From the NCBI RefSeq assembly GCF_053078305.1, contig NZ_CP166879.1: 64,000 nt of DNA; one strand, written 5' to 3'. Positions within the stretch are counted from its first letter, which is position 1; each line of letters begins with the position of its first letter. Position numbers: made by a program. Shown here piece by piece: positions 1-3,000 of this stretch.

Positions 1-3000
1 TCATTTTCCGTGCTGTTTTCAGCCGGAGAACGACCAACCATTCGGGCCAGCACTTCATCAACATATGCGTCGATTTGTGCCTCAAAATCCTTGCGAACCT
101 GCGCCTTCAGCACGCGGTTCACTTCTTCAGAATAAAGTGCCTGTTTGACAAGCTCTTCAGTAACCGTGCCTTTAATCTCTGGCATGAATATTCTCCTTTC
201 CTTTTCTGGTTCACAAAAAATTAAATCTGACCGGAGTCTTTCGGCTGCGGCATTACAGCACCGCTTTTTATCTTTTCCTCGGCAGCTGCATCAATTTTAT
301 TTCGAAAATAATTGCGAATAATTTTATAACCACCGCTGACAAGCAACAGACAACAAACCACCGTGCAGAAATACAGCAGGCAGACGTTTATATATGTCAT
401 ATAAGCCTCACTCTTATTAACTGATGTTACAGCCGGATAAATTCCCGGCCGTCACGATTATGCCGCAGGGGTATTAACCTCAAGGACAACGCTCTCAAAA
501 GACACGCCATAAGTTGCCCCTTTGGTGACATCTGTCAGTGTCAGCGTATCTTTGGCAGGGGAAAGTGCATCTTTCACCATCTGGAATGCCTGGCCCGGAG
601 TGCCATCCAGCACAGGCGTTACCTGGGCACTTCCCGCAGTAAACTTCAGGACAAGTGTATGCCACTGGTTATTGTAGGCTCCAAATGATCCCAGTTTCGT
701 ATTCCCCCCTGTTTTATGGTGCATCAGATTTAACTGGCCGCCTGTTGTCTGGAGATAATACGCCATCAGGAACGGTGTGCCTGTACCACTCATGGTTACA
801 CCTTCCGGGACCGTATCGGTGTGGAGGTAAATACCCAGAGCAAACTGGCCTTCTTTTACTTCACCTGACAGACGGAATTTACAGGTCAACTGACCACCAT
901 GCTTCAGAAGTTCACCGGCTGCATCAGTTCCATGGGTAAGCGTCCAGGTTTTTCCGCTTTGTTTGGATACGGTCAACGCTTTACCTTCGTCCGTCAGCTG
1001 GATTGTACCATCTGTAATTTTCCATCCCTGAGCCGGGGCTTCCCCTGCTGATGCTTTAAGTGAAAGCAGCGTACGGAGTGACGGGGATGTCGGCTGGGGG
1101 GACTCACTGCTTCCTGGCTGACTACCTGTCGGAGCTTCCGGTTTTCCACCCGGCGCGGGCTGAGGCAGGGCTTCACCATCAGGGGCCACACCGGCAATAA
1201 ATGCAGAGGTCAGACCTGCATATTTAAGAATTGCTGATGCAAAACGATCTGAGACCAGAAAACGGCGCGCCCAGGAGCTAAAATGGGTTGCCCTGGATGC
1301 TGTTGTCCAGTTGCCATCTCCCCGTGATTCCGCACCATAATACCCGGCAGAAGCGATATCCGGGTCGTGCTCCGGCAGGTTGGTCGCGGTTTTATTACCG
1401 AACTCATCGTGCATCAGTGGAACAAAGTGAATGTTCTCGGAAGCCCGGTTTTTATATCCGCTATAAATGGTTTCATATGCCGCCGGGTTCTTCTCTTTCC
1501 AGTCATAGGTTGTGTCACCACATAACCACGGCACACTGTCTGATGAACCACCAATACACTGACCGGAGAAAGCACCAAGATCCGCACGGAATTTTTTCAC
1601 CATCGCAGTAAACTGGGCACCATGCTGGGCCGGGGTCGCTTTAAGGTCTCCTTCCCCCTGAATCCATACGACAGATAACAGCACATTCTTTGGATTCGCC
1701 TCAAGTGCCGCTTTCGTTCGACTGACAAGATCCTGATACAGTGGGGTATCCACTCCCCAGCGTAGTGACGCCTCGGCTGCACCACTTGCCGGATCGAATG
1801 AGCCAACTGCGCCGGTTGTAAAAGCAGAGCCGCCACGGGCACAGGGAACCAGTAAAATCCCGGCATCAGCAGGAATCACCGGTAATACTTTTTTCGCAAT
1901 ATGAAGTCCCTGACCCACACAACCATACTGCCCTTTTTTCAGGTCTGCTTTTGGATGGTTCAGCAGACTCATATTCTGAACATCATGAAGGCAGTGATCT
2001 GCTGGAATGATTTCATTGTATTTGCAGGGAATACCCCCGGGGGTTTGTGTATTCCTGCGTGCCAGCTGCATAATACGTGGATCAGGACGATCATAAGAAT
2101 CCGGCAGGGGCAACCCTTCACCATAAGATGAAGCATTGGACTGACCGGCTATAACAATCACGTAATACCAGGAAGGGGAGCTGGAAGCCGTTTCATTTCC
2201 TGCCGGACGGGTATGTGTGTCAGCATTATCCCAGTCTGACGGTTCAGCAGTACCGGCAACATCAGCACTTAACGGAATGACAGCACCAATACCCGCTCCG
2301 GTAATTTCCACGTTCGGATCACCGGATACTGGCCTTACCCACAGGCAATCCCGTGTATTAAAACTGATGAGACAGTCAGCAAATGTCATTCCTCCTTTCG
2401 TTTCAGCCGGAGGAAAGGGAGCCTCAAGAAATGCCGCTGTACCACCGGAAACTTTAACGGTAAAGTTTCCGGGCATTGATGATAGTTGAACCCATTTGGA
2501 CGTCATAATATTCATCCTGTTCCTGAATAAACAGAATTATCATATCCACAGACCGATAAACGCCATTTTGCGTTAATTCAGTAAAGGCCCAACAAAGGGA
2601 GCGTCTTATTTTTCCGAAATGCTCGCAGGATAATAACGATAAAGGGTTGAAAGGCCGATATCAAAAATAAGTGCCACCTGTCTTCGGCTGACACCCCCGG
2701 CCAGTAAACGCCCGACCTGCTCGTATTGTTCCTGCGTGAGACGACGGGGTCTGCCGCCGGTTCGTCCCCTTTCACGGGCAGCTGCAAGACCAGCCCGTGT
2801 CCGTTCGACAATCAATTCACGCTCCATTTCTGCCAGCGCACCCATTATGTGAAAAAAGAAGCGCCCCATGGGGGTTGACGTATCAATGTTGTCAGTAAGA
2901 CTACGAAAATGTAAGCGTAAACTGACCGCCGTATGTAGCCATTAAGCCAGTATTGGTAACGTAGGTGCCCACCTTTTCAACTAGTGGACACCTGTTATGG

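What the first reader, a model, noticed from the sequence alone, without database searches (positions are those of the whole stretch)
458..2515. NanS-type sialate O-acetylesterase gene where Mu carries com/mom
A 685-aa SGNH esterase-like ORF (GQSN block, Pro-rich linker, extra C-terminal domain) starts 90 bp downstream of the invertase stop, on the same strand as the late genes. This family is known from lambdoid prophages of enteric E. coli. Either it is cargo in place of the mom module, or the Mu-like right end lies in the 90-bp gap 2516-2605 and the esterase belongs to adjacent DNA.
Basis: partly seen in the sequence, partly recalled or inferred. Interest (0 to 1): 0.5.

Follow-up and report, generated by a model that had tools for sequence, protein, structure and literature searches.

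The report
Sialic-acid esterase cargo in Mu-like prophage
The gene is a real, intact relative of the sialic-acid de-acetylating esterases (NanS-p) known from Shiga-toxin phages, carried here inside a transposable Mu-like prophage of the Sp18 type with a different front-end domain; it is an interesting variant but not a new kind of system.

Summary
The ORF at 458-2515 (- strand, 685 aa) is real. It matches solved E. coli NanS (E 3.7e-110) and the NanS-p C-terminal lectin-like domain (E 9.5e-42), and keeps the catalytic Ser, His and oxyanion Gln.

The window carries a Mu-like transposable prophage of the Sakai Sp18 type inserted in ftnB. Seven relatives at seven different insertion sites all carry invertase, esterase, DUF1378, DUF826, com, mom, then the phage end. 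So the esterase is internal cargo between gin and com/mom. It does not replace mom, and the phage end is not in the 90-bp gap.

Two things differ from lambdoid NanS-p:
- The N-terminal DUF1737 domain, reported as the capsid anchor in phi24B, is replaced by an unrelated ~75-aa domain predicted to be all-beta. That domain was found only on esterases of Mu-like prophages of E. coli and Salmonella.
- The block from the catalytic domain through DUF1378 is a swapped cassette: 50-73% DNA identity to Sp18, flanked by 97-100%.

This allele occurs in 42 of 5426 complete E. coli genomes and has no close match in the phage collection.

Enzyme activity, expression and the role of the N-terminal domain are inferred, not shown.

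The parts
458..2515 (-). Esterase ORF, 685 aa from the first ATG; the conserved start is probably the ATG at 2506 (682 aa). The stop codon is at 458-460.
2282..2506 (-). N-terminal domain of about 75 aa (residues 4-78), predicted all-beta. It is not DUF1737 and is specific to esterases of Mu-like prophages.
   Evidence: No Pfam hit. 21% identity to the 933W N-terminus against 97% to the L003 (Sp18-type) allele. phmmer against 1.84 billion representatives found only esterase fragments. AF2 pLDDT is 70-84. Fold searches were inconclusive.
2195..2281 (-). Low-confidence (probably disordered) linker, residues 79-107, ending in ...ASSSP just before the catalytic domain.
1220..2194 (-). SASA/SGNH catalytic domain (residues 108-432): Gln125-Ser126 in GQSN (Ser codon 2138-2140), QGE at 286-288, His411 in RATH (codon 1283-1285).
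   Evidence: residue roles from PMC9063846 and PMC9487903
1076..1219 (-). Pro/Ser-rich interdomain linker (residues 433-480), 18 aa longer than in lambdoid NanS-p.
461..1075 (-). C-terminal DUF6645 lectin-like jelly-roll domain (residues 481-685). It is 41% identical to the 933W domain, and 3 of the 4 aromatic residues of the proposed sugar-binding site are kept.
   Evidence: PMC10462455
2516..2605 (-). 90-nt gap between the invertase stop and the esterase. It is nearly identical in E. coli relatives, has no phage-end repeats, and gives no promoter or terminator signal above the shuffled controls.
221..400 (-). DUF1378 small membrane protein gene (59 aa), a co-travelling neighbour as in lambdoid phages.
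   Evidence: (phrog_494)
1..185 (-). 5' part of the DUF826 gene (start ATG at 185), cut by the window edge.
   Evidence: (phrog_311)
150..2170 (.). Mosaic block: 50-73% DNA identity to Sakai Sp18 (80% in the 100-nt transition block at its 5' edge), flanked by 97-100% identity. It covers the catalytic and C-terminal domains, DUF1378 and the first codons of DUF826.
   Evidence: domain identities
2606..2910 (-). 3' fragment of the gin-like serine invertase.
2911..5443 (+). IS66-family element (TnpA 2997-3422, TnpB 3419-3769, transposase 3800-5413) splitting the invertase. It is flanked by the direct repeat (T)ACGAAAAT. The boundaries are good to about 2 nt.
5444..5705 (-). 5' fragment of the gin-like invertase.
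39084..39256 (-). Left end of the Mu-like prophage: TGTAACCAGGTGAATCATTTGATACC... with three TTTGATACY repeats. The host ftnB 3' part starts at 39257.

Best explanation
The ORF encodes a three-domain NanS-p-type sialate O-acetylesterase. It is internal accessory cargo of a transposable, Sp18-like Mu-type prophage, lying between the gin-like invertase and the com/mom module, together with the DUF1378 and DUF826 genes that also follow nanS-p in lambdoid phages.

Shown:
- Homology of the central domain to solved NanS, with Ser126, His411 and Gln125 at the positions of NanS Ser19, His301 and Gln18, and the SASA QGE motif.
- Homology of the C-terminal domain to the lectin-like NanS-p domain.
- The internal position, from seven relatives at seven insertion sites.
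- The mosaic cassette structure.

Inferred:
- The enzyme removes 9-O-acetyl groups from Neu5,9Ac2 on mucin sialoglycans by a Ser-His mechanism, making them usable by sialidases and the Nan pathway.
- The C-terminal domain targets it to glycans.
- It has no signal peptide, so it acts after phage-induced lysis or while attached to particles.

Speculative: the private ~75-aa N-terminal domain takes the place of DUF1737, the capsid-binding domain of phi24B gp84. It may be the module that fits the enzyme to this phage type.
For: Enzyme identity:
- Pfam SASA and DUF6645 matches.
- 3PT5 at E 3.7e-110 and 6YP6 at E 9.5e-42, with residue-by-residue alignments.
- 50-61% identity to NanS-p of 933W and other Stx phages over residues 71-682.
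- Motifs GQSN 124, QGE 286 and RATH 408. Their roles in NanS and the SASA family come from PMC9063846 and PMC9487903.
- NanS-p enzymes of EDL933 and O104:H4 are experimentally active on Neu5,9Ac2 and mucin (review PMC8065619).

Internal position:
- MuA, MuB and repressor are present, and the left end abuts ftnB.
- The right-arm order is identical in STEC2017-197, JNE141411, FWSEC0008, MDP9-27, 2014C-3307, N8B7-2 and Sakai Sp18, each in a different host locus.
- The right ends align and then diverge into host DNA.
- Depositors annotated the inserted Mu-like phage in LC727881 so that it includes the esterase homologue.

Conservation: 42 of 5426 complete genomes carry this allele at 98.6% identity or more, and its 90% cluster has 535 member sequences.

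N-terminal domain:
- 97% identical between the two Mu-type alleles, although the rest of the protein is only 42-68% identical.
- A Salmonella enterica Mu-like prophage has the same domain (28% identity) fused to an esterase downstream of its invertase.
- The capsid role of DUF1737 comes from bioRxiv 10.64898/2026.04.10.717836.
Against: - No enzyme assay exists for this allele or for Sp18 ECs_4993.
- The C-terminal domain is only 41% identical to the characterised one, and one of its four proposed sugar-binding aromatic residues is deleted, so glycan specificity may differ.
- No promoter or terminator signal stood out, and no Mu C-box-like TTAT-N-ATAA motif was found upstream. Timing of expression is therefore unknown.
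- In this window an IS66 element sits about 400 nt upstream and could cut off read-through transcription.
- The com/mom genes and the right end of this particular copy are outside the window.
Confidence: 0.85

Rival explanations
1. The Mu-like right end lies in the 90-bp gap 2516-2605, and the esterase belongs to adjacent non-Mu DNA, for example a neighbouring lambdoid remnant.
For: DUF1378 and DUF826 are typical lambdoid late-region genes. The catalytic block is a mosaic with lambdoid affinities.
Against: The gap holds no TTTGATACY end repeats, whereas the left end holds three. The gap and the first ~115 codons are 97-100% identical to Sp18. Seven relatives in seven different host loci carry the esterase together with com/mom inside the element. 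There is no lysis, Q or other lambdoid gene beside it.
Confidence: 0.02
2. The esterase cassette replaced the com/mom module, so this phage has lost Mom-type DNA modification.
For: In Mu, com starts 94 nt after gin. Here the esterase starts 90 nt after gin, and no com/mom is seen in the window.
Against: The window simply ends inside DUF826. The window's DUF826 segment (1-148) is 98-100% identical to that of Sp18. In every relative examined, com and a Mom-like gene (phrog_1384, E 1.2e-83) follow DUF826.
Confidence: 0.04
3. The protein is mainly a virion-borne enzyme that serves the phage rather than the lysogen. Either it de-O-acetylates bacterial surface polysaccharide (O-antigen or capsule) to expose a receptor, or it tethers particles to mucus. 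Growth on Neu5,9Ac2 would be secondary or absent.
For: phi24B gp84 (a NanS-p) is a capsid-decorating protein through its N-terminal domain. The review PMC8065619 raises the receptor-modification idea. The N-terminal domain here is conserved within the phage lineage while the enzyme part is exchangeable. The protein has no signal peptide. The gene sits right after the tail-fibre and invertase module. The AF2 model resembles small 75-83-aa stand-alone enterobacterial proteins, one of them labelled phage tail protein.
Against: There are no proteomic or structural data for Sp18-like virions. The fold matches are weak and the matched proteins are uncharacterised. No paralogue of the domain exists among the phage's own genes. 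The catalytic core is 68% identical to enzymes shown to act on free and mucin-bound Neu5,9Ac2.
Confidence: 0.2
4. The gene is a decaying, non-functional passenger in a defective prophage.
For: The invertase next to it is destroyed by an IS66 element. Some genomes carry truncated copies next to an integrase (H128-H132).
Against: The 2-kb ORF is intact with all catalytic motifs. It is at least 98.6% identical across 42 genomes of different serotypes. The whole morphogenesis and transposition gene set is present as long ORFs.
Confidence: 0.05

Closest known systems
NanS-p of Stx phages: 933W L0105/z1466, and phi24B vb_24B_21/gp84 (PDB 6YP6 for the C-terminal domain)
   Same: SASA/SGNH catalytic domain 68% identical, with the same GQSN, QGE and R-x-x-H blocks. 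A DUF6645 lectin-like C-terminal domain follows a flexible linker. There is no signal peptide. A DUF1378 gene follows, and DUF826 too in some phages (PMC10462455).
   Different: The N-terminal DUF1737 capsid-binding domain is replaced by an unrelated domain predicted to be all-beta. The C-terminal domain is only 41% identical and lacks one of the four proposed binding aromatics. The interdomain linker is longer. The gene sits in a transposable Mu-like phage between gin and com/mom, not downstream of Q-pR'-stx and upstream of holin S.
Chromosomal E. coli NanS (YjhS), PDB 3PT5
   Same: Catalytic domain homologous end to end (E 3.7e-110), with Ser19, His301 and Gln18 equivalents conserved.
   Different: NanS is the catalytic domain alone and belongs to the nan regulon. 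The window protein adds N- and C-terminal domains and is phage-borne.
ECs_4993 of prophage Sp18 (Mu-like) in E. coli O157:H7 Sakai, annotated 'hypothetical protein'
   Same: Same phage family, same position (invertase ECs_4992, ECs_4993, DUF1378, DUF826, ECs_4996, com, mom), and an almost identical N-terminal ~120 residues.
   Different: Overall identity is only 60%. From the start of the SGNH domain through DUF1378 the DNA is 50-73% identical (80% in the transition block). The Sp18-type block is closer to lambdoid alleles (about 80% aa identity to 933W, 85% DNA identity to phage 1720a-02). The window-type block has no close relative outside its own clade: the next best protein is 63% identical or less.
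Phage Mu right arm (gin - Pmom - com - mom - attR)
   Same: A gin-like invertase is followed after about 90 nt by the next gene. com and mom homologues and an end with transposase-type repeats close the element in relatives.
   Different: About 3.3 kb (esterase, DUF1378, DUF826 and one opposite-strand ORF) is inserted between gin and com. At the DNA level the phage is only marginally related to Mu and D108.

Membership tests
SASA (PF03629) / CE6-type SGNH hydrolases | Significant match to the family profile and to a solved member | tested here: met
   Pfam SASA E 7.5e-13; 3PT5 E 3.7e-110 over residues 108-432
SASA (PF03629) / CE6-type SGNH hydrolases | Block I GQSN, with the Ser nucleophile preceded by the oxyanion-hole Gln | tested here: met
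   G124-Q125-S126-N127 align to NanS Gln18-Ser19 (PMC9063846; PMC9487903)
SASA (PF03629) / CE6-type SGNH hydrolases | Block III (H)QGE motif in place of the usual GxND | tested here: met
   I285-Q286-G287-E288, invariant in alignment A1 (PMC9487903)
SASA (PF03629) / CE6-type SGNH hydrolases | Catalytic His in the last block (RSSH/RASH in NanS and NanS-p) | tested here: met
   R408-A409-T410-H411; H411 aligns to NanS His301
SASA (PF03629) / CE6-type SGNH hydrolases | Esterase activity on 9-O-acetyl sialic acid | not testable with these tools
   Needs recombinant protein and Neu5,9Ac2, mucin or pNP-acetate assays
NanS-p (prophage-borne sialate O-acetylesterase) | C-terminal lectin-like DUF6645 domain after the catalytic domain | tested here: met
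   PF20350 E 2.1e-25; 6YP6 E 9.5e-42. The aromatics Y510/Y515/Y540/F611 of vb_24B_21 correspond to F558/Y563/Y587/gap
NanS-p (prophage-borne sialate O-acetylesterase) | N-terminal DUF1737 (PF08410) domain | tested here: not met
   No PF08410 hit. 21% identity to the 933W N-terminus. The model is all-beta, whereas DUF1737 is described as a helix plus three strands. Nearly all non-Mu-type homologues listed carry PF08410; the window's cluster does not.
NanS-p (prophage-borne sialate O-acetylesterase) | Location in the late region of a lambdoid prophage (downstream of Q/stx, upstream of the lysis genes) | tested here: not met
   Located between gin and com/mom of a Mu-like transposable prophage. 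Only the DUF1378/DUF826 neighbours are shared.
Sp18-like Mu-type transposable prophage (is the esterase part of the element?) | MuA/MuB transposition genes and terminal repeats delimiting the element | tested here: met
   phrog_310 E 5.8e-213 and phrog_296 E 1.2e-109. The left end carries TTTGATACY three times. The right end with the same repeats is seen in relatives. The right end of this copy is outside the window.
Sp18-like Mu-type transposable prophage (is the esterase part of the element?) | The gene travels with the element to different insertion sites | tested here: met
   Seven relatives in seven loci: a prophage DUF4224 gene, csiR, a hydrolase gene near fabY, near yahN, a dehydrogenase gene near yeaC, next to hyfE (a truncated ORF), and sorM. 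The window copy adds ftnB.
Sp18-like Mu-type transposable prophage (is the esterase part of the element?) | com/mom present distal to the esterase in this copy | not testable with these tools
   The window ends inside DUF826. com/mom are present in all relatives examined.

The most novel reading that the evidence does not exclude
The private N-terminal beta-domain is a virion-attachment module matched to the Sp18-type Mu particle, the functional counterpart of DUF1737 on phi24B capsids. On this reading, transposable Mu-like phages of STEC and Salmonella display a sialate esterase plus lectin on their particles for mucus adherence or receptor modification. The enzyme, lectin and DUF1378 block would then be an exchangeable cassette that recombines between transposable and lambdoid prophages at two conserved joints: the start of the SGNH domain and DUF826.
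Probability: 0.2. Interest if true: 0.55.

Novelty: new variant of a known kind. Interest (0 to 1): 0.3.

Why it matters
NanS-p esterases let STEC feed on O-acetylated mucin sialic acids, and they are usually counted only in lambdoid and Stx prophages. This finding shows a further, diverged copy that rides on a transposable Mu-like phage able to land anywhere, including plasmids and Stx phages. Inventories of nanS-p gene dosage in STEC therefore miss it, because it is annotated only as 'DUF6645 protein' or 'hypothetical'.

The phage-type-specific N-terminal domain, set against an exchangeable enzyme cassette, gives a concrete test of the recent claim that NanS-p is a particle-bound protein whose N-terminus sets which capsid it binds.

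The practical consequence is modest: better annotation, and one more allele to include in esterase and colonisation studies.

Tried and rejected
- NCBIfam gave no family for the protein. PHROGs gave only 'unknown function' families.
- The promoter/terminator scan of 1-3000 gave counts equal to the shuffled controls.
- Aligning the gin-esterase gap with Mu Pmom and with the com-upstream region of a relative showed no meaningful similarity. The GATC cluster typical of Pmom stays upstream of com in relatives.
- A search for a TTAT-N4-8-ATAA C-box in the upstream regions of Sp18 late operons and of the esterase found nothing.
- Homologues of the N-terminal domain: the word-index search with one sequence and with a profile, and phmmer against 1.84 billion representatives, returned only fragments of the same esterases. 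One 1445-aa repeat protein also scored, which I regard as a compositional artefact.
- A profile search of all window ORFs for a paralogue of the N-terminal domain found none.
- Megablast of the window's catalytic and C-terminal block against the phage collection gave no match.
- Rangarajan 2011 and Saile 2016 could not be read. Residue roles were taken from secondary sources.
- Searches for papers linking nanS or sialate esterase with Mu-like phages, or naming ECs4993, found nothing relevant.
- ARAGORN found no tRNA in 1-40000, although PGAP marks a 'tRNA-OTHER' at the equivalent place in a relative.
- The exact target-site duplication of Sp18 could not be settled. A 4-bp TAAA is shared, but a clean 5-bp repeat is not.
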